IMG/VR virus record: IMGVR_UViG_3300047496_000262
Span: 15,849 to 79,848 of that record
DNA: 64,000 bases
Source of the DNA: a virus
Reading direction: 5' to 3' (one strand)
Shown: positions 5,834-61,482 of the stretch, piece after piece
Layout: each line of letters opens with the position of its first letter
Position numbering within the stretch: position 1 is the first letter of the stretch
Program-made: the position numbers and the translations under genes
The notes under the pieces: model-generated
What the model was told of the DNA's origin: nothing
Databases searched by the model: none
Seen by the model: only the letters and a program-made list of their open reading frames with translations

Positions 5834-6550
5834 ATGGCGACACGGGCTATGGGACCAGCCAGGCGATCTGCCAAGGCCGCGATGGCGACAGAGGCCGAAC
5901 CAGACGACGTGGTGATCGCCGAGCCGGTTGATATGGCGCTGCGCGAACCGATTGATGAGCCGCTGCGCGGGCCGACCCATGTGCCGCTGCGGGCGATTAC
6001 CAAGCTGCCGATCAACGATCTGGTGGCGAACCCGCGCAACGCCCGTAAGCACCCGGCGGCGCAGGTGGCGATGATGGCGAAATCGCTGCTGAAATTCGGC
6101 CAGACCCGGCCCATCCTGGCGCGCGCCCAGAACCGCATGATCATCGTCGGCCATGGGTTGTGGACCGCGGCCAAGGATGCCGGCCTGACCGATATCGACG
6201 TGATCCTGTGGGATGTGGATCAGGCGACCGCCGATCAGTACATGGTGGCCGATAACCGCTTGGGCGATCTTAGCAAGGATGATCCGGACCTGTTGGGTGC
6301 GTTGCTGCGCGAGGCGCCGGAGGCCGATCTGTTTTCCATGGGGTTCATGGCGACCGATCTGGATGCCGCGTTCGGCCAGATGGAAACCATCCTGATCCAC
6401 GAGGTGGAGGCGACCCCGGTGCATGACCGGTTCTGGATATCAGTCAAGGGCCGGTTGCGCGATCAGGCGCGGGCGCTGGACCGGTTGCGCCAGTTCCTGG
6501 CCGACATGCCCGAGGTCGAGGTGGAACTTGGCACCGTGACGTTGGACTAA
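5834..6550 (+). CDS. ParB/Srx N-terminal domain protein
   Basis: NPRNARKH..QV....SL.KFGQTRPIL, IIVGHG and MVADNRL. Confidence 0.85.
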   Translation: MATRAMGPARRSAKAAMATEAEPDDVVIAEPVDMALREPIDEPLRGPTHVPLRAITKLPINDLVANPRNARKHPAAQVAMMAKSLLKFGQTRPILARAQNRMIIVGHGLWTAAKDAGLTDIDVILWDVDQATADQYMVADNRLGDLSKDDPDLLGALLREAPEADLFSMGFMATDLDAAFGQMETILIHEVEATPVHDRFWISVKGRLRDQARALDRLRQFLADMPEVEVELGTVTLD

Positions 6551-6556
6551 CCCGAC

Positions 6557-7210
6557 ATGGCAGCGAAGCGGCGGCAGGATCTGGGCACCAATATGCTGGA
6601 CCAGACGGCCAAGACCAACACCCACCCGGCGGCGCGGCAAGCGAAGATCGCCCTTCGCGAACGGGTGCTGAACGCGATCGGCCCCGACCGGTCGATCGTC
6701 TTCGATGCGTTTGCCGGCGATGGCGAGATGTATCGCGGCATCTGGCACCGCGCGGCGCAGTATGTCGGTTGCGACCGGAAATGGTACCGCGACGAGCGCA
6801 CCGCCTTTGTCGCCGATAACCGGCGGGTGATGCGGGCGATGAGTGCCGCCGATCTGAAGCGCTTTACCATCTTCGATTTCGACCCGTATGGCGCGCCCTG
6901 GTGGCAGGTGGCGATCCTGATCCAGCGCCGCCGGCTGGATCCCGGCGAGGTGTTGGGGCTGGTGCTGACCGAGGGCAGCGGGATCTCGCTGAAGATGGGC
7001 CATATATCCGGCGGGTTGCAGTTCCTGACCGGGGTGCGCGAGGGCGTGGCGGGCGGATCCATGGCGCATGAGGAACTGGTGGATATGGCACTGACCCAGA
7101 CCGCGCGCCGGATGCAGGCCCGAATCATCAAGCGTTGGCAGGGCCGTGGAAAAACCGGTGCATCCATGCGATATATCGCGGTGCTACTGGAGGGCATCCA
7201 GCCGGAATAG
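6557..7210 (+). CDS. SAM-dependent methyltransferase-like protein (DPYG motif)
   Basis: VFDAFAGDGEM (motif I) and FDFDPYGAPW (strand-4 motif). Confidence 0.7.
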   Translation: MAAKRRQDLGTNMLDQTAKTNTHPAARQAKIALRERVLNAIGPDRSIVFDAFAGDGEMYRGIWHRAAQYVGCDRKWYRDERTAFVADNRRVMRAMSAADLKRFTIFDFDPYGAPWWQVAILIQRRRLDPGEVLGLVLTEGSGISLKMGHISGGLQFLTGVREGVAGGSMAHEELVDMALTQTARRMQARIIKRWQGRGKTGASMRYIAVLLEGIQPE

Positions 7211-7222
7211 TGGAGATGGGCC

Positions 7223-7576
7223 ATGGCATTGGCGTTGCGCGAGGGTATCAGCACCGATGATGTGAAGAAGGCGATATCGGCCAGTGGTGCCATCCTGACC
7301 CATGCGTCGCAATTGCTAAATGTCGAGCGGCGCGAGTTGGTCGATTATATTGAGACCCACAAATCGGTGCAGAAGCACATTGAGGAGACCAAGGACAAGT
7401 GCCTTGATCTGGCCGAGACCATGCTGATGCAACTGGTCAAGAAGGGCAATTTCCCCGCCCTGTGCTTCTATTTGAAATGCCAGGGCAAGGACCGCGGCTG
7501 GATTGAGAACGGCCCGGTGACCAGTACCGCGGTGCAGGTGAATGTGAGCATTTCCAAGGAAGAGGCGATGTTCTGA
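7223..7576 (+). CDS. terminase small subunit (HTH)
   Basis: HTH-like N-terminus plus LDLAETML..LVKKGN.PALCFYLKCQGKDRGW; lies directly before TerL. Confidence 0.7.
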   Translation: MALALREGISTDDVKKAISASGAILTHASQLLNVERRELVDYIETHKSVQKHIEETKDKCLDLAETMLMQLVKKGNFPALCFYLKCQGKDRGWIENGPVTSTAVQVNVSISKEEAMF

Positions 7577-7577
7577 G

Positions 7578-9545
7578 ATGCCCGCCCGTGGTGCCACGCT
7601 GGGCGAGCGGCGACTGGCCGCCAAGCGGCGGCAGGAGATCGAAGCCTATCTGCTGGACCATCCGGAGGAACGCGCCAAGCTGGATGCGGTGCAGGCAAGG
7701 CGCGCCGCGCTGTTACTGGCAAGGGATGAGCGCCGCAAGATCGCCCGCGACGCCAAGGTGGCCGCCCGCGAGGCCGCCAAGGCGCTGAAACCGGTCAGGC
7801 CCAAGCCGGAACCAAAACCCAAGCGCACCAAGAAAACCGCACCCGACCCGGATGCGCCGAAGCGCGGCCCCAAGCCCGACCCGAACTCTAAGGCCGGCAT
7901 CGCCCGGCGCGAGGCGGAGGAACGCAAGGCGCTCAGGGCGGCCACGCGGAAGATCGAACGCGCCCAGATCCGCCGCGAGAAAGCCGCCGCCCATGCGCGC
8001 CTGATGCGCCAGAAGGCCCGCGACCAACAGGCGGCGGAGGAAGCAGCGGCCGAACGCCTGAAAGCGGAAGCGCTGGCCGAGGAGGCCCGGATCCGCGAGG
8101 AGCGCGGGCTTGAGGAAGAATCGCCCCGCCAGCCCATCGCCGATAACGAGGGGGATCTCGACCCCAAATTCACGCCCGTGCGCGACGGCAAGAAGCTGCC
8201 CCTGCCGCCCGATGTCTGGACGCCCAATCCCGGGCAGAAAAAGGCGATCAAGCTGCTGACCGGCCGGCAGCGCCACACGCTGATCTATGGCGGGGCCCGG
8301 TCGGGCAAGACCACGCTGTTGCTGATCGCCATCGTGACACGGTGCCTGCTGGCGGCCGGATCCCGGCATGTGATCGTGCGCTCGACCTTTTCCGAGGTGA
8401 AGCGATCAGTGTGGGTGGATACGTTCTATAAGGTCATGCGGACCAAGTTCAAAGGCGTGACCTTCCGCGAGAACAAGCAGGACCAGTTTGTCGAGTTCGC
8501 CAATAAATCCACCATCTGGTTCATCGGCCTGGACAAGAAGGAGCGCGCGGAAAAGATCCTGGGCATGGAGTTCTGCACCATTTTCTGCAACGAGTGTTCG
8601 CAGATCGCATATCCATCGGTGATGCTGGCGCTGACCCGGTTGGCGCAGGTGTGCTTTAAGGCCAATGGCGAGGTTCTGCCCCAGCGGGCCTATTACGATC
8701 TGAACCCGGCCGGCACGCAGCACTGGACCTATCTGATGTTCGTCTTGAAGATGGACCCGCTGGACAAGCGCCGGGTGCTGGATGAGCCGGACGATTATCA
8801 GTACACCACGATCAACCCCAGCCAGAACGTGGCGAACCTGGATCCGAAATTCCTGCAATCGCTGGAACGGATGCCGCCGCGGTATCGCGCCCGGTTCTTT
8901 GAGGGCACCTACCAGAAGGAAATCGACGGCCAGCTATGGACCATCGAGGCGCTGGCAAAGGCGCGCTGCCAGCCCGAGGACGTGCCGCCCGGCTATAAGC
9001 GCATCGTGGTCGCGGTCGATCCCTCCGGTGCCGATGGCAGCGAGGAGAAGCGGTCGGATGCGATCGGCATCGTGGTGGCCGGCCTGGGCTATGACGATAT
9101 CGCCTATGTGCTGGAGGATGCGACGATGACCGGCGGCCCGGCGGATTGGAGCCGGGTGGTGATCCGGCTTTACGATCGATGGAACGCCGACCGGATTGTG
9201 GCGGAATCGAATTTCGGCGGCGAGTTGGTGCGCTATACCATCAAGACCCGGGACCGGCTGGCGAATGTGCATCTGGTGCGGGCCAGCAAGGGCAAGGTGG
9301 TGCGGGCCGAACCGGTTTCGACGCTCTACTTCGCCCCGCTGGAGAATGTGCGCCATGTGGGCGAGTTTCCGGAACTGGAGGAGGAGTTGCTGAACTTCTC
9401 CACCGCGGGCTATCAGGGCAGCCGCAGCCCGAACCGGGCGGATGCGCTGGTCTGGGCCTTGTCGGATCTGATGGTGCAGGGCCGGCCCCATTGGGCCACC
9501 GAGCGCCCGCCGCAGCCCCGGTCGATCCCGATCTTTGCCCGGTGA
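7578..9545 (+). CDS. terL: terminase large subunit with a ~200-aa charged N-terminal extension
   Basis: Walker A GGARSGKT, Walker B IFCNECSQ, coupling motif DLNP, nuclease motifs VVAVDPS, AESNFGG and SPNRADALVW. Confidence 0.93.
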   Translation: MPARGATLGERRLAAKRRQEIEAYLLDHPEERAKLDAVQARRAALLLARDERRKIARDAKVAAREAAKALKPVRPKPEPKPKRTKKTAPDPDAPKRGPKPDPNSKAGIARREAEERKALRAATRKIERAQIRREKAAAHARLMRQKARDQQAAEEAAAERLKAEALAEEARIREERGLEEESPRQPIADNEGDLDPKFTPVRDGKKLPLPPDVWTPNPGQKKAIKLLTGRQRHTLIYGGARSGKTTLLLIAIVTRCLLAAGSRHVIVRSTFSEVKRSVWVDTFYKVMRTKFKGVTFRENKQDQFVEFANKSTIWFIGLDKKERAEKILGMEFCTIFCNECSQIAYPSVMLALTRLAQVCFKANGEVLPQRAYYDLNPAGTQHWTYLMFVLKMDPLDKRRVLDEPDDYQYTTINPSQNVANLDPKFLQSLERMPPRYRARFFEGTYQKEIDGQLWTIEALAKARCQPEDVPPGYKRIVVAVDPSGADGSEEKRSDAIGIVVAGLGYDDIAYVLEDATMTGGPADWSRVVIRLYDRWNADRIVAESNFGGELVRYTIKTRDRLANVHLVRASKGKVVRAEPVSTLYFAPLENVRHVGEFPELEEELLNFSTAGYQGSRSPNRADALVWALSDLMVQGRPHWATERPPQPRSIPIFAR

Positions 9546-9575: not shown

Positions 9576-9887
9576 ATGCGCCGGTTTATGATTATGTACG
9601 ACGTGCCGGATGATTATCCGGAGATGAAAGGCATCCAGACGCTGGCGACCGAATTGTACGAGCGGGACTGGATGCCGATACACCAGGATTCGGGTGAAAT
9701 GGCAATCATGTTTGGCACAAAGGACATAAGATTTAGATGGTCTATGACCCAACTCTCAACTGATTCATTCCCTCCAGAGTATCTCGCAGGCTTGATGAAT
9801 AAGAATCTGGATCTCACTCAAGAGGCTGCCGAGCAGAACCGGTTATTGGGTATAGATGCCGCGCCGGACTTCCCCAGCAAAGCCTGA
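9576..9887 (+). CDS. hypothetical protein
   Basis: GAAGGAG RBS; the 3' half is AT-richer than its neighbours. Confidence 0.55.
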   Translation: MRRFMIMYDVPDDYPEMKGIQTLATELYERDWMPIHQDSGEMAIMFGTKDIRFRWSMTQLSTDSFPPEYLAGLMNKNLDLTQEAAEQNRLLGIDAAPDFPSKA

Positions 9888-10161
9888 TCCCATCCTTTTG
9901 CGCTTGGCCCAGGTGCAGAAGGACGCAAATGGCTATTTCCAGCGGGCGATGCGGCGCGAGAATGCCCCGACCGAGCGCATCGGCTGGGAGATGCGCGAGT
10001 TCCGCAAGGCGCTGATCGACCGGCAACCTCTGGTGCAATTGAGGATTCTGGAGAAGTACCGATCCCGGATGCGCGAGTGGTATTTCGCGCCCGAACGCCG
10101 CTTTGCCGGCATGGCGCGGGGCGAGCCAGCGGAAGATCCGGCCGCGGCATCGAAACGCTGA
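9856..10161 (+). CDS. hypothetical protein
   Basis: 101-aa ORF with phage-like codon usage, converging on the pentamer array. Confidence 0.55.
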   Translation: MPRRTSPAKPDPILLRLAQVQKDANGYFQRAMRRENAPTERIGWEMREFRKALIDRQPLVQLRILEKYRSRMREWYFAPERRFAGMARGEPAEDPAAASKR

Positions 10162-10163
10162 TA

Positions 10164-10540
10164 CCGCGGCCGGAAGGTGCTTGAGAGACAGGACCTGCCG
10201 CACCGAACCCGGCCCGACCCCGCCGCGCCCCACCTTGACTGCATGACCAGGACGCGCCGCGACGTAACGAGCCTTGACCCACCACGACCGCCCTGACTCG
10301 CCTTAACCGGCCAAGCACACCTCGCCTCGACCGCCAGACCGTGACGCGACAGACAAGGCCTAGACCCACCTTGACTGCCGAACCCGGAACAAACACGACG
10401 GGCCCGGCCAAAACAAGCCCTGACCGCCTTGACGGTCGCACCGGAACGCGCCTCGACACGCCATACCTCAACGTGCCCCACCTTGCCTGAACCCACCTCA
10501 ACACACCAAATTTGGACCGTCTAACCTTCCTTGACCGCGG
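10164..10540 (-). ncRNA. pentameric G(G/U)Y-NN repeat array 1 (candidate multi-guide RNA, VIPR-like) enclosed by a long-range stem
   Basis: The plus strand parses as about 58 R(C/A)C-NN pentamers with GACY-GC phase breaks at 10237, 10286, 10329, 10373 and 10422. The flanks 10164-10191 and 10517-10540 are complementary on the minus strand. Confidence 0.75.
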
Positions 10541-10543
10541 CTC

Positions 10544-10861
10544 CTAAGCCGCCATATCCGCCTCATTATCCGGCGGATCCTGCTCCGACCCGTCGTCGTC
10601 ACCGCGTTGAATCGCGCGGATTTCGGCGTCGATGCCGGTAATTTGTTGCACCAGAAGCGCGCGGTTGCATCTCAGCCGGCCCAGCAGAAGTTCGTTTAGC
10701 GCCATGATAGTACGAACGTACACCGGAACCGGCAGATCGCCGCTGACCCATCGATAAACCGTGTTCAGGGCACAACCGGCCTGGGCGCCCAGTTGCCGGC
10801 GGCTGATGCCCAGCGTCTTCAGCGCGGCATTCAGCGATTTTCCATCGGTGATCGGGCTCAT
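10544..10861 (-). CDS. XRE/Cro-family HTH protein
   Basis: LNAALKTLGISRRQLGAQAGCALNTVYRWVSGDLPVP. Confidence 0.8.
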   Translation of the reverse strand: MSPITDGKSLNAALKTLGISRRQLGAQAGCALNTVYRWVSGDLPVPVYVRTIMALNELLLGRLRCNRALLVQQITGIDAEIRAIQRGDDDGSEQDPPDNEADMAA

Positions 10862-11073
10862 GATGGTCCTTCCCCGGTGGCGTACCGCAACGACGTGATC
10901 GTAAAGGCCGATGGCCCGACCCTGATGCCGCCCAGCATTTCGGCCGGCACCAGCGGATTGATGCCGGCACCGGCCTTGTTGGCGACCTCGACCGCGCCCA
11001 GGAGCGTGGCGGCCAGACCGACGGTGCGGCCGTCCAGGACAACCCGGCGGATGCGTTCTGCCCGGGCGCTCAT
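10858..11073 (-). CDS. hypothetical protein
   Basis: MSARAERIRRVV..., ATGA-coupled on both sides. Confidence 0.55.
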   Translation of the reverse strand: MSARAERIRRVVLDGRTVGLAATLLGAVEVANKAGAGINPLVPAEMLGGIRVGPSAFTITSLRYATGEGPS

Positions 11074-11276
11074 GCCGCCTGTTCCAGGGCTTCGGCCAGG
11101 GCGTACCAGCCGGCGATATGGCGGAGGTCCATGGTGATGACCTGGGCGTCGTCCGTGGTCAGACGGCCCATCGCGTAGCGCCACGCCATGCGGAAGCGAT
11201 TGGCCTTGTGGGCGACGCGCTGGCGGAGATGCCAAAGCTGATACTGCACCTCGCGGAGCGGGGGATTGTGAATCAT
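11070..11276 (-). CDS. hypothetical protein
   Basis: 68-aa ORF downstream of the 11347-11375 promoter. Confidence 0.55.
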   Translation of the reverse strand: MIHNPPLREVQYQLWHLRQRVAHKANRFRMAWRYAMGRLTTDDAQVITMDLRHIAGWYALAEALEQAA

Positions 11277-11346
11277 AGCATCGTTGCCTTTCCTGTTGAT
11301 TTCTCAAGGCCGCGTCGTGCGGCGATGAGGCGAGAATCGCGGATTA

Positions 11347-11375
11347 GGTCTATCAAGGATTTCGCGCGAGCGCAA
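11347..11375 (-). promoter_or_regulatory. putative promoter for the small-gene/HTH/array-1 transcript
   Basis: TTGCGC-17 nt-TAGACC; shares TTGCGYTCGCGCGAAA with the 5609-5637 promoter. Confidence 0.5.
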
Positions 11376-22011: not shown

Positions 22012-22273
22012 TAGAGGGGGGGTGCTTTGTTTGTGGGATTCGCGCGGCTGGCCTATACCATCCCCCGCAGTCACCAAACGCGAAAGGCGCCCGTGTCAGT
22101 GTCCATACTCTCATGGTGTTCAGTATTCGGCGCGTAATGGTGTTCCGCCTGAGCCCGTGTCGCTGTCCGGTCGATTGCGCGCCTTGGCATTTCCGGCCCC
22201 CGGTGGTTCCGCTTCTCGCTTGTGTGCGAAAAAAAAATTGACCTATAAAGGGGTGTCACGTTTGGAGGTTCCG

Positions 22274-23071
22274 ATGGCTGAGAATGGTGATTCTGCGAAT
22301 GAGCCGATGTTGTCGCGTCGGGCTGGATCGCCGGGTGGTGCGGTTTCGCTGACACAGGTGTTGGCGGCGGTTGAGCGGCATGCGGGATATTTGGCGGGTG
22401 CGTCGGATGATCTGCGGGTTCCGTATGGGGATTTGGTGCATTTTCTGGGGATGAATGGGTATTCGGAACGGTTTTTGGAGCGGTTTGAGGCGTACCGGGA
22501 GGAGGCTTGCGAGGCGGCGTTGTTTCGGCTGGTTAGGCAGGGCAATGCTGAGGCGGCGGTATTTTGGGCGGAACGGGCGGAACGGCGGGCTACTGGTTCG
22601 GTGACGGCGTCTGGTGATGCGTCGGGGGATTTGGCGGGGTTGCTGGAGGATGCGGCGCGGCGGGTGCCGGCGCTGGGGTGGAAGTTGTATGAGGCGCTGG
22701 GGCGGGTGCTGGACGAGGTCGATCCGGGGATGCGGGAGCGGCCGGATGGGTTGGCCCCGAGGGGGATGGCTGAGGCGGTGCAGGGGGCTGCGGATCCGGA
22801 GCGGGGGCAGGTTGCGTTGCCGGCGGTGTGGCATTTCTACTGCCCGGATGGGGAGGGGATCCTGGGTGTCCCGATGGGATGGTATGGCGAGGTGGCGTAC
22901 CGGAAGGCATCGGGTCTGATCCCCGAGCCGTTATCGTTGGAGGCGGGGCTGTCGTATCATCAGGGGGCGGTGATTAGGCTGTGCCGGTCGCATGATGGGT
23001 GGGTGCCGCGGTCGAAAGCGCAATTGCCGGAGATGACGCTACCGAAGAATTTGGTGTATATCGTTTCCTGA
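22274..23071 (+). CDS. TerS-like HTH paralogue with a C-terminal extension
   Basis: GGAGG RBS; residues ~25-100 align without gaps to the 7223-7576 protein (…EAALFRLVRQGNAEAAVFW vs …ETMLMQLVKKGNFPALCFY). Confidence 0.65.
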   Translation: MAENGDSANEPMLSRRAGSPGGAVSLTQVLAAVERHAGYLAGASDDLRVPYGDLVHFLGMNGYSERFLERFEAYREEACEAALFRLVRQGNAEAAVFWAERAERRATGSVTASGDASGDLAGLLEDAARRVPALGWKLYEALGRVLDEVDPGMRERPDGLAPRGMAEAVQGAADPERGQVALPAVWHFYCPDGEGILGVPMGWYGEVAYRKASGLIPEPLSLEAGLSYHQGAVIRLCRSHDGWVPRSKAQLPEMTLPKNLVYIVS

Positions 23072-28431: not shown

Positions 28432-28645
28432 ATCAGGGACAGGTGCCCGCAGGCGGACGGTCAGGTACCCGACGTTCGATAAGGCCATAGAAGCCCAAGT
28501 TCGAGCCCCGGCGCTTCCCGGGTTACCATACAGCCTCTGAGGTAGAGCCTCCGAGTCCCGGCGCCCGCGTTTCCGCGAGGCGAGCCCGTCCGGGATGGGC
28601 CAGGAGCCCGAAAGCCGAGATGCGCCAAAAAGGCGTGTCCTTGAT
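28432..28645 (+). ncRNA. candidate structured RNA in the major-capsid leader
   Basis: Closing stem ATCAGGGACA/TGTCCTTGAT encloses at least five hairpins in a 350-nt intergenic gap. Confidence 0.55.
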
Positions 28646-28668
28646 CGTCTTTCTCGGAGATAGCTTCC

Positions 28669-30039
28669 ATGGGCTCGTTTACCAATTTCCCGACCGCGCT
28701 CGTTCCGATCCTCCAGACCGGCTTTCTGGAGCGCGAGTTTGAAGAGGGGCTGGATTCAGTCCTGGCCTATCGCCGCGAGAACCTGGAAGAGACGGTGCCG
28801 GTCCGCATCGGCGAGACCATCACCCGCACCAGGACGGGCCGCAAGACCCCGATCTCCACCGCTATCACCCCGGCCAATAACACCGGCCTGGATAACGGCC
28901 TGACCTCCACCGACGCCGCGGTCGAGCAGTACAGCTTCACCATGCAGCAGTACGCCGACACGACCGACGTGTCGCTGATGGATGATCTGGCCGGCATCGC
29001 CAACAACATCATCCGCGTCGCCCGCAATAACGGCGTCCAGGCCGCCCAGTCGCTGGAGCGCATCACCCGCAAAAAGCTGTTTTCCGCGTATCTAGGTGGC
29101 AACAGCCGGGTGCGCACCGATCTGGGGGCTTCGACCACGACCTCCTGCCATGTCGACGATGTCCGCGGGTTTCAGACGGTTCTGGTCAACGGCGTGGTCA
29201 CCGCTGTCAGCGGCACCAATACCCTGACCGTGACCGAAACCAATGTCGGCGGCGCCGGTGTAAACCAGAACCTGACGGTGACCGGGTTTACCATCGACGG
29301 CACCAATTCATCGTCCTGCCCCGATGGCGTGTCCGGCACCATCACCTTCACCACGGCCACCGCCCCGGTGAACGGCGATTCGCTGATCGCGCTGAACGCC
29401 GCGCAGATCATGCGCCCGTTCTCCCACGTCACCACGGCACAGATGACCGGTCAGGACGTACTGACCCTGGGTCTGGTCGAGGATGCGCTGGCACGGTTGC
29501 GCGATAACGCGGTGCCGCCGATGGATGACGGCACGTTCCATATCATCCTGGACAACACCTCGATGCGGCAGCTTTGGGCCGATCAGGATTTCAAGATCCT
29601 GTATGCCGGCCGCAAGGATGCCAGCGAATACCGCGACGGCGATGTCATCATGCTGTTGGGCATGACCTTCATTCCGACGACGGAAGCCTATGTCCAGGTT
29701 GCCAATTCGTCCGCCGCCACCGGCTATTCGGCCAATAACGTCCGCGTGCGCCGACCGATCGTGCTGGGCGCGGAAGCCACCATCCAAGGCAATTTCGAGG
29801 GGCTGGAGCATTTCCTGGCCCGCGAAGGGGTGAACGCGATCGGCGAGGTCTTCATCGCCAACAACATCGCCCATATCATCCGCCCGCCGCTGGATCGGTT
29901 GCAGCAGACCCTGTCGCAGACCTGGGACTGGGTCGGCGATATCGCGGTACCGACTGACACCACAGCGACCACAAACGTGATTCCCACCGCTACGAACGCC
30001 CTCTACAAGCGCGCGATCATCCTGGAGACGGCTGGTTAA
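28669..30039 (+). CDS. major capsid protein
   Basis: 456 aa after the scaffold gene; LEREF...L, IGETITRTR.G, QAAQSL, LRDNAVP, RPPLDRLQQ; Thr-rich insertion. Confidence 0.85.
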   Translation: MGSFTNFPTALVPILQTGFLEREFEEGLDSVLAYRRENLEETVPVRIGETITRTRTGRKTPISTAITPANNTGLDNGLTSTDAAVEQYSFTMQQYADTTDVSLMDDLAGIANNIIRVARNNGVQAAQSLERITRKKLFSAYLGGNSRVRTDLGASTTTSCHVDDVRGFQTVLVNGVVTAVSGTNTLTVTETNVGGAGVNQNLTVTGFTIDGTNSSSCPDGVSGTITFTTATAPVNGDSLIALNAAQIMRPFSHVTTAQMTGQDVLTLGLVEDALARLRDNAVPPMDDGTFHIILDNTSMRQLWADQDFKILYAGRKDASEYRDGDVIMLLGMTFIPTTEAYVQVANSSAATGYSANNVRVRRPIVLGAEATIQGNFEGLEHFLAREGVNAIGEVFIANNIAHIIRPPLDRLQQTLSQTWDWVGDIAVPTDTTATTNVIPTATNALYKRAIILETAG

Positions 30040-55555: not shown

Positions 55556-55960
55556 ATGGCCTATGATGACGGGTCCAATGATAATTCGCGCCTGAACCGT
55601 ATCAGCCGGCTGGCCGCCTCGCCGATCGCCACCTCGATCGCGCGCCTGATCACCATTTTCGGCGGGCCATCGGCGCTGGGCGCGCTGTTCGTGCTGACCG
55701 CCGCCGAACGCGAGATGCAGGCCGACCTGCATCAGATTGGCGAAGATATGGTGCATATGGATGAGCGCATCACCCGCCTGGAGCAGGACGAGATCAACGC
55801 CAAATCGTCGTACCAAGTGACGCGCGATCAACGCGACAAGCAGATTTCAGAGCTTCAAGCCGGTCTCAACGGCATGCACGAGGATATCGACCGGCGGTTC
55901 AATAGTTTGGACGGCCGCGTCCGGTGCCTTGAACATGGCGTCGCCAAGGGGTGCCCGTAA
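55556..55960 (+). CDS. single-TM coiled-coil protein (lysis accessory candidate)
   Basis: N-terminal hydrophobic segment followed by a long heptad region; near the endolysin. Confidence 0.55.
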   Translation: MAYDDGSNDNSRLNRISRLAASPIATSIARLITIFGGPSALGALFVLTAAEREMQADLHQIGEDMVHMDERITRLEQDEINAKSSYQVTRDQRDKQISELQAGLNGMHEDIDRRFNSLDGRVRCLEHGVAKGCP

Positions 55961-55965
55961 CAGCA

Positions 55966-55995
55966 ATCAGGCGGCGGGGTGAACCGCCGCCTGAT
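55966..55995. terminator. 12-bp hairpin between the converging late operon and array 2
   Basis: ATCAGGCGGCGG / CCGCCGCCTGAT perfect stem; followed by TGCTGTT on the minus strand. Confidence 0.65.
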
Positions 55996-56009
55996 GCTTC
56001 GTAGTGGTG

Positions 56010-56445
56010 GACGGCCATAACATGCCCCGCCGCACCCCGCCACAACTCGACCAACCACGACGGCCTTGCCAAGACTTGCCGCGCCCGACCCAACCGCGAC
56101 GCGACGAGCCCAAACAAGCCTTGACGCACCTCGACAGCCGAGCCCCGCCCGGCCTTACCCCGACATGCCGAGCCATGACGGCCTCGCCATACCTTGACGA
56201 GCCCTGCCTAAAACCGCCTGGACGGCCTCGCCAGGACTCGACGCACCAAGCCTCGACTCGCCGTGCCAAGCCTCGACTGCCATACCGTACCCCGCCTTAC
56301 CTCGCCTCGACAGGCCAGGACTATCCCAACCGTGACCGCCGTACCACGCCAGGCCGCACCAGGACGTGCCTCGCCATGCCTAAACAGAACCAGCCTAGAC
56401 CGCCATGATGCGCCAGGACACGCCGAGCCTCACCTTTCCGCGACA
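56010..56445 (-). ncRNA. pentameric G(G/U)Y-NN repeat array 2 (candidate multi-guide RNA, VIPR-like)
   Basis: 80 pentamers in 8 units (9,14,8,8,10,11,12,8) with GACN-GC phase breaks at 56010, 56059, 56133, 56177, 56221, 56275, 56334, 56398 and 56442. Confidence 0.8.
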
Positions 56446-56477
56446 GCGCGCCAGATTTTCGCTGGCCCGCAGTGGAA

Positions 56478-56505
56478 ATTTTGCATTCGAGGTGCCCCCG
56501 GTCAA
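56478..56505 (-). promoter_or_regulatory. promoter pointing into array 2
   Basis: TTGACC-16 nt (ending TG)-CAAAAT; the -35 box overlaps the inverted repeat CAAGCGA-N5-TCGCTTG. Confidence 0.55.
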
Positions 56506-56518
56506 GCGAAATTCTCGC

Positions 56519-56547
56519 TTGCGCGAAATATCGCGCTGGCTTACGGT
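56519..56547 (+). promoter_or_regulatory. divergent promoter for the endolysin
   Basis: TTGCGC-17 nt-TACGGT. Confidence 0.5.
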
Positions 56548-56561
56548 TTTGGAATAGGGAG

Positions 56562-57245
56562 ATGCCAATGATACAGCCCGCCGTCTTAGCCGCATGGCGA
56601 CCGTGGAATGTGCCGCTAGAGGGCTGCACTTTTTGGTTGTACGCCGACACGTTACAGCTTGTGACCACCGGAATCGGCAATTTGGTCGACCCGCTTCCCT
56701 TGGCCCTGCGGGTGCCATGGAAGCACCCGGACGGCACGCTGGCGAGCGCGGATGAGGTTGCCGCTGAGTGGCAGGCGGTGAAAAACAACACCGCCCTGGC
56801 GCAACAGGGTGCCAGGGCCGCGGAGCGCGTCACCACGCTGCGGATTACCGATGCCGATATCGACGCCCTATGCGCCCAGCAACTGGCGGCCAACGCGAGC
56901 ACGATGAAGCTCCACGGGGCCTTTGCCGGGTTCGACCTGTGGCCCGCCGATGCGCAGATGGGCGGCTCCAGCATGGCCTGGGCGATGGGCCCGGGATTCG
57001 GGGCGTCCTGGCCGCATTTCTCGGCGGCGGTGGCGGCCGGCGATTGGGCTGGCGCGGCGATCAACTGCTGGATGGCCGATCGCGGCGGCGATCTGACCAA
57101 CCGCAACGACGCCACCGCAAACTGTTTCCTAGTGGCGGATTACGTCGTTCGCTATGGGTTGGATCCGACCGTCCTGCATGGCCCGGTGCCGTGGCAGGCG
57201 CTCCCGAACTGGGATGGGGAGATGGTGCTGGCGGCGTCGGCGTGA
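56562..57245 (+). CDS. endolysin (T4-lysozyme/GH24-like)
   Basis: LEG....LYAD....VTTGIGNL (E-x8-D-x5-T triad); W.....Q.....MAW.MG and F..A...GDW..AA. Confidence 0.8.
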   Translation: MPMIQPAVLAAWRPWNVPLEGCTFWLYADTLQLVTTGIGNLVDPLPLALRVPWKHPDGTLASADEVAAEWQAVKNNTALAQQGARAAERVTTLRITDADIDALCAQQLAANASTMKLHGAFAGFDLWPADAQMGGSSMAWAMGPGFGASWPHFSAAVAAGDWAGAAINCWMADRGGDLTNRNDATANCFLVADYVVRYGLDPTVLHGPVPWQALPNWDGEMVLAASA

Positions 57246-57741: not shown

Positions 57742-57817
57742 GTCGGGGTGGAGCAGATGGTAGCTCGTCAGGCCCATAACCTGAAGGTCAGAGGTTCGAG
57801 TCCTCTCCCCGCCACCA
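57742..57817 (+). tRNA. tRNA-Met(CAT), initiator-like, with atypical positions
   Basis: D arm GAGC/GCTC, anticodon arm TCAGG-CCCATAA-CCTGA, T arm AGAGG-TTCGAGT-CCTCT, encoded ACCA end. Confidence 0.88.
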
Positions 57818-59096: not shown

Positions 59097-60890
59097 ATGG
59101 GGACTGACGTGGCGGAGTCGCGCGAATTTCGGCCGGTATTCACAGAGGCGACGCCGGGCGACCTAGCCAGGCGTCATTGTGCCGGGATCGCGCCGGAGTC
59201 ACGTCTGGCCTTCGCACAGCGTTTCACCTTTACGATCGTCGAGGCGTGGTGGCGGGCACTCGGGCCGCGCTGGATGTTGCGCGAACTGCCGGGAGCGTCG
59301 GATCTGATCGGCCTGACGATGGAGGACGCCAATACGGCGTCACGAATCGGCGAGGGACTTGCGGCAAAGGAGCCGCGGCAAGCGGCGGGTTTGATCGGTG
59401 CAATCTACGCGGCCTGTCTCCCGGATACCTACCGGGCCGCCCATGGAATCTACTACACGCCACCAGCACTCGCGGATCGGCTTCTGCTGATGGCGGAAAA
59501 CGCCGGTGTCGCGTGGAGGACCGCAAGTGTGCTCGATCCCGCTTGTGGCTCGGCGGCGCTACTGCTGCCGGTGGTATCCCGGATGGTGGATGCACTGGCC
59601 GGAACTGATCCTGCCTCTATCCTGCAACAACTCGGGCTGCGGCTCAGAGGGATCGACATCGATCCGTTCGGCGCGTGGTTGGCGCAAGTGGCACTCGATT
59701 TCGCGCTTTTGAATCTGACCCACGCGGCAGGGCAGCCGGCACCACGGATGATCGAGAGCCGCGATAGTCTTGACCGGCGGCTGGCTGATCTCGAGCGGTT
59801 CGATCTGGTCATCGGGAATCCGCCTTACGGGCGGATTTCGCTGCCGCCAGCCCGCCGCGCGCTGTTCCAGCGCAGCGTTTACGGCCACGCCAATCTCTAC
59901 GGGCTGTTTACCGATGCCGCGCTGCGGTGGGTTAGGGTCGGCGGGGTCGTCGCCTATGTCACGCCCACCTCGATGCTGTCCGGCCTCTATTACCGGGCTC
60001 TGCGCACGCTCCTCGCGGCGGAGGCGCCGCCGCTGGAGGTGAATTTCGTGGGCGAGCGTAACAACGTGTTTGCCGATGTGCTGCAGGAGACGATGCTGGC
60101 GACCTATCGGCGAGGTGGCCGTGCTATCCCCGGCCGCGTGGGATTTCTCGATACCGGAACGACAGGTCAGGTCCGTCTTCAGAGGGGCGATACATTCACG
60201 CTGCCGGCTGATCCGAGCTCGCCCTGGCTGCTGCCGCGCTCGTCCGACCAGCTATCGCTCTCGCGACGCCTGCGCCTGATGCCGCATCGCCTCCGGGATT
60301 ATGCCTATGGCGTATCGACCGGGCCGCTCGTGTGGAACCGGTTCAAGCCGCAACTCGCAACGCTGAGGACCGACGATGCCTACCCGGTCATCTGGGCGGA
60401 GTCGGTGACTAGTGACGGGCGGTTCGTATGGCGGAGCGAAAAGCGCAACCATGCGCCTTGGTTCGTGGCGCGGCGTCCCAAGGATGATTGGCTGATCCTT
60501 GACCGGCCTTGCGTCCTGGTTCAGCGAACCACCGCGAAGGAACAGAAACGGCGTCTGATCGCCGCGGAACTGCCTGATGAGTTTATTCGCCCTCACGTGG
60601 CGGTCGTGGTGGAGAATCATCTCAACATGGTGCGGCCGGTATCGCCGGCGGCAACGCTGCCGGCGGCGGTGATCGCAGCACTGCTGAACAGTGCCGCCGT
60701 CGATGCCGCGTTCCGGTGCATCAATGGATCGGTGGCGGTGTCCGCGTTTGAACTGGAAGAACTGCCGCTGCCGGCGCCTTCGGTCTTGAACGCGCTGGCG
60801 CGGCTGATCTCCTGTGGGGGGCCGTCGCATAAGGTGGAGGCGTTGATTGCGGCGGCCTATGGGCGGGCGGATGCTGCCGCCGCTGCCTGA
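59097..60890 (+). CDS. type II N6-adenine DNA methyltransferase (Eco57I/BsuBI/PstI-like, gamma class)
   Basis: GIYYTP, VLDPACGS, GIDID, DLVIGNPPY, NLYGLF and VSTGPLVWNR. Confidence 0.9.
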   Translation: MGTDVAESREFRPVFTEATPGDLARRHCAGIAPESRLAFAQRFTFTIVEAWWRALGPRWMLRELPGASDLIGLTMEDANTASRIGEGLAAKEPRQAAGLIGAIYAACLPDTYRAAHGIYYTPPALADRLLLMAENAGVAWRTASVLDPACGSAALLLPVVSRMVDALAGTDPASILQQLGLRLRGIDIDPFGAWLAQVALDFALLNLTHAAGQPAPRMIESRDSLDRRLADLERFDLVIGNPPYGRISLPPARRALFQRSVYGHANLYGLFTDAALRWVRVGGVVAYVTPTSMLSGLYYRALRTLLAAEAPPLEVNFVGERNNVFADVLQETMLATYRRGGRAIPGRVGFLDTGTTGQVRLQRGDTFTLPADPSSPWLLPRSSDQLSLSRRLRLMPHRLRDYAYGVSTGPLVWNRFKPQLATLRTDDAYPVIWAESVTSDGRFVWRSEKRNHAPWFVARRPKDDWLILDRPCVLVQRTTAKEQKRRLIAAELPDEFIRPHVAVVVENHLNMVRPVSPAATLPAAVIAALLNSAAVDAAFRCINGSVAVSAFELEELPLPAPSVLNALARLISCGGPSHKVEALIAAAYGRADAAAAA

Positions 60891-61482
60891 GCTGGCCGAG
60901 GTCCACAATCGTCTTCAGCTTATCTTCCCTCCCGGCACCCCGCAGCGCGGTTACGTCACGCGGGAAATGGCGGCACGGACCGTCTTCGTGCTGCTCTATA
61001 TTGGTGCAATCGAGGATACCGGTATCTGGATGGCGCCGAAGCATGTCTATCGGATGGGCGGTCATCAGGCCGCGCGCCGCACAGATGACGACCGCCGCCT
61101 CTATGCGTCCGCCGTAGAAAGGCCAGGATTTCCGGCACCTGCAGACCGCTGGTTTCAGGATAACACGCGTGAGCCGATCCGAGACGAAACCCTGCGGGAG
61201 GGGTTGGTTCGAGTCGGGGCGGTCATCACGCGTCGGGGACTGCCCACCACCTCCTCCAAGGGGCGATACGCCCTTCAGCGAGATCTCGCCCTGCTGTTCG
61301 ATCCGCGCCTGGAGGGCGAGGCGCTGCAAGGTGCCATCGAGTCTTGGCAGGATCGCTACCTGTCGGCGGGTGGCCTTGCCCGGGTGCGCCTGCAGCAGCG
61401 TTCGGCCGCGGCTTCGAAGTCGAAAGTGCTCGTCGAAGCCGAGCTGGGGGATCTTGAATGCGACGTGCGGGTGTACGTTTAG
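60871..61482 (+). pseudogene. C-terminally truncated BsuBI/PstI-family restriction endonuclease
   Basis: RL..IFP.GT, W..DNTREPIRDETLR and PTTSSK.RYAL N-terminal domain; the ORF ends at about 203 aa without the catalytic domain. Confidence 0.75.

What the first reader, a model, noticed from the sequence alone, without database searches (positions are those of the whole stretch)
9856..11375. The arrays are orphans in this window: where is the reader protein?
Seen: the neighbours of array 1 are a converging 101-aa unknown ORF, an XRE-HTH gene and two tiny ORFs. Array 2 lies between lysis genes. None of the listed ORFs shows an obvious RAMP/Cas7-like signature such as a C-terminal G-rich loop. 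Inference: the effector is encoded elsewhere in this genome (which extends beyond both edges), is borrowed from a co-infecting element or the host, or is one of the unannotated early ORFs with an unrecognised fold. Dispersed guide cassettes under separate early and late-region promoters would be an unusual organisation.
Basis: inference. Interest (0 to 1): 0.7.

Follow-up and report, generated by a model that had tools for sequence, protein, structure and literature searches.

The report
Phage VIPR guide arrays without Vipr
The two "arrays" are guide-RNA arrays of the recently described CRISPR-like VIPR system. The phage record that carries them has no gene for the Vipr protein that reads such guides, so they are most likely "solo" guides that borrow the protein from another element, a case already published in 2026.

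Summary
Window 10190-10543 and 56011-46 are non-coding tracts of strict 5-nt units. A third lies 13.6 kb before the window start. On the minus strand the units read G(G/T)Y-NN. They form blocks of 9-17 units joined by a 1-nt phase slip. This is the "staggered vrRNA array" of VIPR systems (bioRxiv 10.64898/2026.04.26.720920).

A pattern scan found over 110 viral contigs with the same grammar. In 94 of 114 array-bearing loci a ~255-aa protein sits just upstream of the array. It folds as Csm3/Cas7, and its HMM finds the published SUSP1 Vipr at E 1e-15. That HMM, hhalign, motif scans and a whole-record search find nothing in this 79,848-bp record. The record is linear and about 88% complete. The one well-placed candidate ORF is not a RAMP.

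The arrays are therefore orphans here. Most likely they are solo vrRNAs of a VIPR-null phage, a class published in October 2026 (10.64898/2026.10.15.759431). Less likely, vipr lies in the missing ~12%.

One guide spells the catalytic motif of the GH24 endolysin next door. The phage's own copy differs at 7 of 24 read bases. Earlier agents of this scan found similar solo arrays on other DNA. This is a new member of a known kind.

The parts
10190..10543 (-). Array 1. A staggered vrRNA array of about 70 pentamers G(G/T)Y-NN on the minus strand. The blocks hold 10, 10, 5, 4, 9, 10, 2, 17 and 5 units, joined by 4-nt phase slips (+ strand GACn|GCC).
56011..56446 (-). Array 2. A staggered vrRNA array of about 88 pentamers in eight blocks of 10, 15, 9, 9, 11, 12, 13 and 9 units (44-74 nt).
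10544..10861 (-). HTH transcription-regulator-like gene (105 aa). Its stop codon abuts array 1, so the array is probably co-transcribed with it. It could play a vap-like DNA-binding role, but this is unproven.
10858..11276 (-). Two small ORFs (71 and 68 aa) of the same minus-strand operon. No family match, and too small to be a Vipr.
9856..10161 (+). Converging ORF of 101 aa with no family match.
10137..10174 (.). Inverted repeat of 15 nt (93% complementary) at the distal end of array 1. A possible two-way terminator.
56478..56505 (-). Sigma-70-like promoter (TTGACC, 16 nt, CAAAAT) pointing into array 2 on the minus strand.
55968..55995 (.). GC-rich hairpin at the distal end of array 2. A metatranscriptome contig (55840-56202) runs across it.
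56338..56401 (-). One guide of 12 NN. Under the 1-nt-skip rule it spells Y-(C/W)-L-Y-(I/M)-(D/E)-T-L-A-L-V-T.
56568..57245 (+). GH24-family endolysin gene, next to array 2 and divergent from it.
56631..56666 (+). Site in the phage's own endolysin (FWLYADTLQLVT, the catalytic-motif region) that resembles the guide. 17 of 24 read bases and 9 of 12 codons match. Two of the seven mismatches are Leu TTG/TTA in place of CTN.

Best explanation
The tracts are staggered arrays of VIPR guide RNAs (vrRNAs).

**How such guides work (from the literature).** The arrays are transcribed from the minus strand as G(G/U)Y-NN pentamer repeats and cut into guides of about 44-74 nt. In VIPR systems a small Cas7-like protein, Vipr, polymerises on the GGY triplets. 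It presents the NN pairs to double-stranded DNA, reading two bases and skipping one, and silences the target.

**Shown here.**
- The array grammar.
- The array's kinship with more than 100 viral loci that carry a Vipr gene.
- The absence of any Vipr-like gene in the 79.8 kb held.

**Inferred.** This phage carries three such arrays (about 15 guides of at least 8 units) under their own promoters or operon, but no vipr gene in the part of the genome that is held. Most likely it is a VIPR-null carrier of solo guides. These would be loaded by a Vipr protein supplied in trans by a co-infecting or resident VIPR-positive element, and would redirect that protein against rivals. At least one guide is aimed at the active-site coding region of the endolysin gene as close relatives would carry it. 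The phage's own copy is mismatched.
For: **Grammar and statistics:**

**Match to the published description.** The arrays fit 9-16 YNNGG repeats, GGY or a related consensus, and staggered arrays with a 1-nt overlap.

**Link to Vipr.**
- The same grammar occurs in over 110 IMG/VR contigs.
- In 94 of 114 loci a ~255-aa protein lies on the G-rich strand. In 86 of those it is just upstream of the array (median gap 48 nt).
- Most loci that lack it are cut on that side.
- Its AlphaFold model (pLDDT 83) matches Csm3/Cas7 of type III and type VII complexes at probability 1.0.
- Its HMM finds the experimentally studied SUSP1 Vipr at E 1e-15.

**Absence in this record.**
- hmmsearch --max at E<=10 on all stop-to-stop frames gave only hits at E>=2 and about 3 bits, which is noise.
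- hhalign against 146 ORFs gave a best probability of 3%.
- There is no G-loop motif in a real reading frame.
- The whole-record search found no candidates.
- phmmer with SUSP1 Vipr and Vap1 found nothing.

**Transcription.**
- A promoter-like site points into array 2.
- Array 1 abuts a minus-strand operon.
- Contigs from an RNA library cover 55840-56202 at 99% identity or more.

**Target.**
- One guide spells 9 of 12 codons of the adjacent endolysin's catalytic motif. That score was reached in 1 of 400 shuffled guides and 0 of 400 guides drawn from the pool of NN pairs.
- The guide's best match falls on the same motif in most of the best-matching of the 81 homologous loci.

**Precedent.** Solo vrRNAs in VIPR-null phages that borrow Vipr in trans are published.
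Against: - The record is a linear fragment, about 88% complete by CheckV. Its first gene, a ribonucleotide reductase with an intein, is cut by the contig end. A vipr locus could lie in the missing ~11 kb.
- No natural target matching any guide at 80% or more was found. The only readable guide matches at 71% of read bases.
- The endolysin match is one of 30 guide-orientation tests.
- No VIPR-positive partner phage of the same host is known. The host itself is only guessed from endolysin relatives (Acetobacteraceae / Rhodospirillales MAGs).
- The triplet consensus here (about a quarter GTC and some GTT) is looser than the published GGY.
- The strand and processing of the RNA are not shown. Contigs cannot give the strand.
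Confidence: 0.6

Rival explanations
1. The phage is VIPR-positive. Its vipr (and vap) locus, perhaps with a fourth array, lies in the part of the genome that is not in the record. The three arrays seen are dispersed cassettes served in cis.
For: - The record is linear and about 88% complete, and its first gene is truncated.
- Other records place Vipr 6 kb from the array (G003), or 20 kb away on the other strand (G005).
Against: - In 86 of 94 loci the Vipr gene directly precedes an array. Here none of three arrays has one.
- Only about 12% of the genome is unseen.
- In the published enterobacterial panel, VIPR-null carriers (388 phages) outnumber VIPR-positive records (148).
Confidence: 0.17
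2. A reader protein is encoded in the record, but it belongs to a family too divergent for the Vipr profile, or is not a RAMP at all. It would be one of about 12 unannotated ORFs of 130-260 aa.
For: - Many early ORFs have no family match.
- Vipr proteins are very diverse, with seven types.
- The triplet consensus here is looser than GGY.
- G001, a 77-kb record rated 100% complete, has a 2.1-kb array with a relaxed grammar and no Vipr match.
Against: - The profile bridges from the staggered-array family to the type II SUSP1 Vipr at E 1e-15, so it is not narrow.
- The conserved G-V-G-D-W/F-R loop is absent from all real reading frames.
- The only syntenic candidate is the 148-aa ORF upstream of the third array. 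It gives a confident model (pLDDT 83) that is mostly beta-strand, with no Cas7 match and an hhalign probability of 0.2%.
- The ORF of 201 aa has only a generic ACT-like ferredoxin domain in a poor model.
Confidence: 0.1
3. The arrays are decaying relics of a lost VIPR system and have no present function.
For: - Array 1 has short, degenerate blocks of 2, 4 and 5 units, and the third array is weak.
- G005 shows a Vipr gene broken by a stop codon 20 kb from an array.
- An earlier agent of this scan read orphan arrays in a complete 134-kb phage partly this way.
Against: - Array 2 keeps the triplet at 84 of 91 positions while the NN pairs vary freely. That pattern indicates selection on the scaffold.
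- Three separate loci are retained, with promoter-like signals.
- One guide still reads as a coherent protein motif.
Confidence: 0.08
4. The tracts are not guide RNAs. They would instead be C-rich Rho-loading (rut-like) tracts, binding sites for a TRAP-like ring, or arrays of protein-binding sites on DNA such as an origin, a centromere or a pac site.
For: - The + strand is C-rich and G-poor (GC skew about -0.33) and lies after genes.
- A 5-nt period with blocks of 9-11 units resembles TRAP sites (my own knowledge).
Against: - The identical grammar, including the GACn|GCC junction, is physically linked to a Cas7-like Vipr gene in 94 loci.
- Neither a Rho site nor a DNA-site model explains invariant triplets with hypervariable NN pairs.
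- No Rfam family matches.
Confidence: 0.05

Closest known systems
VIPR systems with staggered vrRNA arrays (Vipr + vap + vrRNA; bioRxiv 10.64898/2026.04.26.720920; structures in 10.64898/2026.04.26.720927)
   Same: - Pentamer repeats with a fixed triplet and a variable NN pair.
- Blocks of 9-17 units.
- Blocks abut with a 1-nt overlap and have no separate 3' tail.
- Carried by a phage.
- One guide reads a coding sequence in the codon register, with the skipped base at the wobble position.
   Different: - No vipr and no recognisable vap gene in the 79.8 kb held.
- The triplet is G(G/T)Y, with about 25% GTC and some GTT, rather than GGY.
- Three arrays are spread over 70 kb rather than forming one compact locus.
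Solo (orphan) vrRNAs of VIPR-null phages and F5 satellites (bioRxiv 10.64898/2026.10.15.759431)
   Same: - vrRNA arrays on an element with no Vipr hit on the same contig.
- The proposed need to borrow Vipr in trans.
- Guides aligned to the codon wobble position and aimed at conserved, active-site-coding parts of competitors' genes.
   Different: - The published cases are Enterobacteriaceae phages with type II guides (pseudoknot tail), mostly single guides. Their targets are vipr, vrRNA loci, satellites or REP elements.
- Here there are staggered multi-guide arrays in a high-GC phage from a moss metagenome.
- The one readable target is an endolysin.
- The genome is incomplete.
Phage-borne orphan CRISPR mini-arrays and RNA anti-CRISPRs (my own knowledge; cited as 'dummy crRNAs')
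   Same: Guide-like RNAs carried without the effector genes, which use or jam an effector made by another genome.
   Different: These have CRISPR repeats and contiguous spacers, and rely on host Cas proteins. They lack the pentamer code and the Vipr filament.

Membership tests
VIPR system (complete) | vrRNA made of tandem pentamers with a conserved GGY (or related) triplet and hypervariable NN, 9-16 repeats per guide | tested here: met
   - Triplet counts are and block sizes.
- The grammar pattern matches 5 times against 0 expected.
- The consensus is G(G/T)Y, a 'related consensus' in the sense of the paper.
VIPR system (complete) | A vipr gene (minimal RAMP with RRM core, G-loop and thumb) in the locus | tested here: not met
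   No match by HMM, hhalign, motif scan, phmmer or whole-record search. The positive control, SUSP1 Vipr, scores E 1e-15. The record is only about 88% complete.
VIPR system (complete) | An accessory vap gene beside vipr | tested here: inconclusive
   - SUSP1 Vap1 has no match.
- The families that flank arrays in other loci (clusters 1 and 5) have no match.
- A 105-aa HTH gene abuts array 1, but kinship to any vap is not shown.
VIPR system (complete) | Staggered array architecture, with adjacent guides sharing 1 nt | tested here: met
   Every block boundary is a 4-nt step, GACn followed by GCC on the + strand. The same junction occurs in Vipr-linked loci. Legend of fig. S18.
VIPR system (complete) | Guides match natural DNA targets under the 1-nt-skip rule at 80% or more of NN positions | tested here: inconclusive
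   - No hit at 80% or more was found in the phage's own record, in 1.15 Mb of VIPR loci or in 81 endolysin loci. No exact hit was found in viral or metagenome contigs.
- One guide matches the neighbouring endolysin at 17 of 24 bases and 9 of 12 codons, above the null.
VIPR system (complete) | Expression and processing into small RNAs bound by Vipr | not testable with these tools
   The only data are Logan contigs of one metatranscriptome, filed twice, which cover 55840-56202. They give no strand, no ends and no protein binding.
Solo vrRNA of a VIPR-null element | [quoted passage not shown] | tested here: met
   Caveat: the paper required complete genomes, and this record is a fragment.
Solo vrRNA of a VIPR-null element | A VIPR-positive element that can co-infect the same host and supply a compatible Vipr | tested here: inconclusive
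   The host is unknown. The endolysin's nearest relatives lie in Acetobacteraceae / Rhodospirillales MAGs. Three of 301 genomes sampled from that order have a Vipr-like gene, and none of 5 named genomes do. I found no array within 1.5 kb of those three genes.

The most novel reading that the evidence does not exclude
Array 2 and the recoded endolysin next to it may form a linked 'guide plus immune allele' weapon. The phage makes no Vipr of its own. Instead it loads its guides onto a rival's Vipr during co-infection and turns that protein against the rival's own lysis gene. Its own allele escapes through changes at the read bases, including rare TTG/TTA leucine codons. The three dispersed arrays would each sit beside the gene class they police.
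Probability: 0.25. Interest if true: 0.7.

Novelty: new member of a known kind. Interest (0 to 1): 0.42.

Why it matters
VIPR was described only in 2026, and almost all experimental work is on type II systems of enterobacterial phages. This record extends the solo-guide phenomenon in three ways:
- to staggered multi-guide arrays;
- to a high-GC phage from a moss or soil community;
- to a lytic-function target.

It also offers a concrete guide/target/escape-allele triplet that can be tested in a reporter assay. It does not change the known mechanism.

For the scan, the practical lesson is that the Vipr profile built here (alignment A1) and the 47-nt grammar pattern separate complete from solo VIPR loci quickly.

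Tried and rejected
**Other readings of the tracts**
- Tandem Repeats Finder and exact-repeat tools see only fragments of the arrays. The period-5 parse was needed.
- I first considered a Rho rut tract, TRAP-like sites, primase sites, or origin, centromere or pac sites. I dropped these once the grammar proved to be linked to Vipr genes.
- Rfam finds only a tRNA in the window.
- Two regions with similar skew or periodicity are coding, not arrays: window 22256-23071, and record 7015-7986, a pentapeptide-repeat gene.

**Relatives and extending the record**
- There are no close relatives of the phage in GenBank phages. Only three distant terminase relatives exist in IMG/VR.

**Reader candidates**
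- The ESM Atlas gave nothing useful for two candidate ORFs.
- The 148-aa ORF upstream of the third array is not a RAMP.

**Target searches**
- Exact guide patterns found nothing in viral contigs for three guides, or in metagenome contigs for one guide.
- No guide matches the phage's own record, 1.15 Mb of VIPR-positive loci, or 81 endolysin loci above shuffled controls at the DNA level.
- G000 and G001, another record with an array and no Vipr, share only a ParB-like protein, so no alternative reader emerged.

**RNA data**
- Parts of array 2 without RNA-contig cover (56203-57075) say nothing.
- X3 and X4 look like one data set filed twice.
Full report
**What is there.** The window is positions 15849-79848 of a single 79,848-bp virus record. 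The record is classed as linear and about 88% complete. The two arrays behind the finding are real.
- On the + strand, window 10190-10543 and 56011-56446 parse almost without exception into pentamers [G/A][C/A]C-NN. In array 2 the triplets are GCC 42, GAC 22, ACC 15 and AAC 5 of 91. In array 1 they are GCC 21, GAC 18, ACC 17 and AAC 8 of 75.
- The phase is broken only by 4-nt steps, nearly all of the form GACn followed by GCC. This cuts the tracts into blocks of mostly 9-17 units.
- Identity at lag 5 and lag 10 is 0.44 and 0.47, against about 0.25 at other lags.
- A 47-nt grammar pattern matches five times in the window. It never matches in 100 dinucleotide-preserving shuffles.
- A third, weaker array of the same grammar and on the same strand lies outside the window, at record 2113-2262. 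It sits between a 148-aa ORF and a ribonucleotide reductase gene.
- Two other regions with strong skew or periodicity are ordinary coding sequence.

**What it is.** A literature search for pentanucleotide repeats in phages returned the VIPR preprint.
- VIPR systems consist of a small Cas7-like protein, Vipr, and vrRNAs built of 9-16 YNNGG repeats.
- The GGY triplets are held by the protein. The NN pairs read double-stranded DNA, two bases read and one skipped.
- The paper also describes 'staggered' arrays, in which one guide ends where the next begins with a 1-nt overlap.
- Read on the minus strand, the tracts here are G(G/T)Y-NN repeats with exactly that junction (GGC-N-GTC).

I tested the link independently.
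114 of the 122 sequences then held, this record among them, contain true arrays of 0.2-2.4 kb.
- I clustered all ORFs of these loci. The commonest family is a protein of about 255 aa, present in 94 loci. It lies on the G-rich strand, and in 86 cases directly upstream of the array with a median gap of 48 nt.
- Most loci that lack it are cut on that side.
- Its AlphaFold model (34-sequence alignment, pLDDT 83, pTM 0.77) matches Csm3/Cas7 subunits of type III and type VII effector complexes at Foldseek probability 1.0.
- Its HMM scores the experimentally characterised Vipr of Escherichia phage SUSP1 at E 1e-15. I located that gene between its GGY-NN arrays at 28474-29061.
- So the family is Vipr, and arrays of this grammar are normally its guides.

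- hmmsearch with all filters off, at E<=10, on every stop-to-stop frame of 40 aa or more gave only chance-level hits (E>=2, about 3 bits).
- hhalign of the family profile against 146 plausible ORFs gave a best probability of 3%.
- A search for the conserved loop, shared by both families (GVGDWRP in SUSP1 and GIGDFRQ in the array-linked family), found nothing in any real frame.
- The whole-record search with the alignment produced no candidates.
- phmmer with SUSP1 Vipr and Vap1 found nothing.
- The two families that most often flank arrays elsewhere are also absent.
- The genes beside array 1 are an HTH regulator of 105 aa and two ORFs of about 70 aa.
- Array 2 has no same-strand neighbour. 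It has its own promoter-like site and a distal hairpin.
- The only ORF in the canonical position is the 148-aa ORF upstream of the third array. It has 36 homologues, a confident and mostly beta-strand model (pLDDT 83), no Cas7 match, and 0.2% hhalign probability to Vipr.

The 'orphan' observation is therefore correct for the 79.8 kb that exist.

**How unusual is that?**
- Among the records I could search whole, one has Vipr 0.8 kb from its arrays and one has it 6 kb away.
- One has it 20 kb away on the other strand, interrupted by a TAA stop.
- Two have no match. One of those is a 77-kb record rated 100% complete, whose 2.1-kb array runs into the contig end. The other is a 22-kb record rated 44% complete.
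- A second preprint (October 2026) reports 444 'solo' vrRNA loci in 388 VIPR-null enterobacterial phages and in satellites. It states that such guides must borrow Vipr in trans. It shows that they redirect or target rivals' VIPR systems.
- Earlier agents of this scan also reported solo arrays on other DNA.

The organisation is non-canonical but already known.

**What keeps the cis alternative alive.** The record is a fragment. Its first gene, a class II-like ribonucleotide reductase with an intein, is cut by the contig start. Joining the two ends does not restore it. About 12% of the genome may be missing. Weighing the small unseen fraction, the absence of a Vipr gene next to any of three arrays, and the published excess of VIPR-null carriers, I put about 0.6 on solo guides, 0.17 on vipr in the missing part, 0.1 on an unrecognised reader, and the rest on relics or other functions.

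**Do the guides read anything?**
- Under the 1-nt-skip rule no guide matches the phage's own record, the 1.15 Mb of VIPR-positive loci, or the public viral and metagenome contigs (exact patterns) above controls.
- I then followed a lead from earlier notes of this scan and translated each guide as NNx codons.
- The 12-NN guide at 56338-56401 spells Y-(C/W)-L-Y-(I/M)-(D/E)-T-L-A-L-V-T. The gene 170 nt away, a GH24-family endolysin by the names of its homologues, encodes FWLYADTLQLVT in frame at 56631-56666.
- Nine of 12 codons match. That score was reached by 1 of 400 shuffled guides and 0 of 400 guides drawn from the pool of NN pairs, anywhere in six frames. Thirty guide-orientations were tested, so the score alone is borderline. 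The location in the adjacent gene, in frame, on the most conserved motif, makes chance unlikely.
- The site is the E-G...Y-x-D...L-V-T-x-G-x-G motif, invariant at Y, D, V and T across 36 homologues.
- Guide-specified residues at mismatch positions occur naturally in relatives, for example YWLYLDTHVLVT.
- In most of the best-matching of the 81 homologous loci, the guide's best match falls on this same site (16-17 of 24).
- The phage's own copy differs at 7 of 24 read bases. Two differences are leucine TTG and TTA where the guide reads CT. TTR codons are 16% of leucine codons in this genome and TTA is 1.7%. However, five of the gene's six TTR codons lie in its first 45 residues, so the bias is regional.
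- This fits a guide aimed at the endolysin of close relatives with a mismatched self allele. No allele matching at 80% or more was found, so the target is inferred, not shown.

**Context.**
- The stretch occurs at full length in moss-metagenome DNA runs that may be its source.
- Contigs of one metatranscriptome, filed twice, carry pieces of the region at 99% identity or more. One piece (55840-56202) covers the distal 190 nt of array 2 and the hairpin. This is compatible with transcription, but gives no strand or ends.
- The endolysin's nearest relatives are in Acetobacteraceae, Rhodospirillales and Dongiaceae MAGs.
- Three of 301 genomes sampled from that order carry a Vipr-like gene. A partner is therefore conceivable but rare in the sample.

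**Verdict.** Its guide-RNA reading is right, and its list of possible homes for the reader protein is sensible. The feature is a further example of VIPR guide arrays without Vipr, a kind published within the past months. Three local points are of interest: the staggered multi-guide form, the three dispersed loci, and a guide that reads the neighbouring endolysin's active-site motif.

Noticed in passing
L122:7015-7986 (record coordinates, minus strand; outside the window): A 323-aa pentapeptide-repeat protein gene (A-[DN]-L-x-x type, 15-nt period). It gave the strongest periodicity signal in the record. It might be a DNA mimic or anti-defence protein, but this was not examined.
   Followed up: partly
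L122:2-2029 (minus strand): A ribonucleotide reductase gene that carries an intein-like insert and is cut by the contig start. The third pentamer array lies directly upstream of it.
   Followed up: partly
window 56568-56705: Five of the endolysin's six TTA/TTG leucine codons fall in its first 45 residues, in a genome where TTR is 16% of leucine codons. This could reflect recoding of the guide-read region or a mosaic origin.
   Followed up: partly
window 55966 and 55996: The metatranscriptome contigs differ from the record at two bases (A>T, G>T) just outside the hairpin between the 134-aa gene and array 2. This may be a strain variant or an RNA-level difference. It rests on a single contig of depth 6.6.
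   Followed up: no
L024:8700-10868 (G001:74880-77047): A 77-kb virus record rated 100% complete has a 2.1-kb array of about 40 guide blocks. The grammar is relaxed (xxC-NN, with the same GACt|GCC junction). There is no Vipr match, and the array runs into the contig end. A CsrA-like gene and a nuclease-like gene lie just downstream.
   Followed up: partly
L123 (G005:47901-48545): A Vipr gene with an in-frame TAA stop, 20 kb from and on the opposite strand to that record's array. It may be a VIPR system in the act of being lost.
   Followed up: no
window 60847-61482 and 59097-60890: A BsuBI/PstI restriction-endonuclease HTH domain protein lies next to a 597-aa ORF near the right end of the record. 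This is a possible phage-borne restriction-modification module.
   Followed up: no
window 5834-7576: A ParB_N-domain gene, a probable methyltransferase-like ORF and a small ORF lie directly before the large terminase gene. The ParB-like protein is the only protein shared with two other array-bearing records (G001, G003).
   Followed up: partly
window 57742-57814: A tRNA gene (Rfam, 57.5 bits) downstream of the endolysin. The DNA run shows a pile-up of short foreign contigs there (depth 700), as expected for a conserved tRNA.
   Followed up: no
window 56513-56528: A short palindrome (TTTCGCGCAAGCGAGA region) lies between the array 2 promoter-like site and the endolysin start.
   Followed up: no
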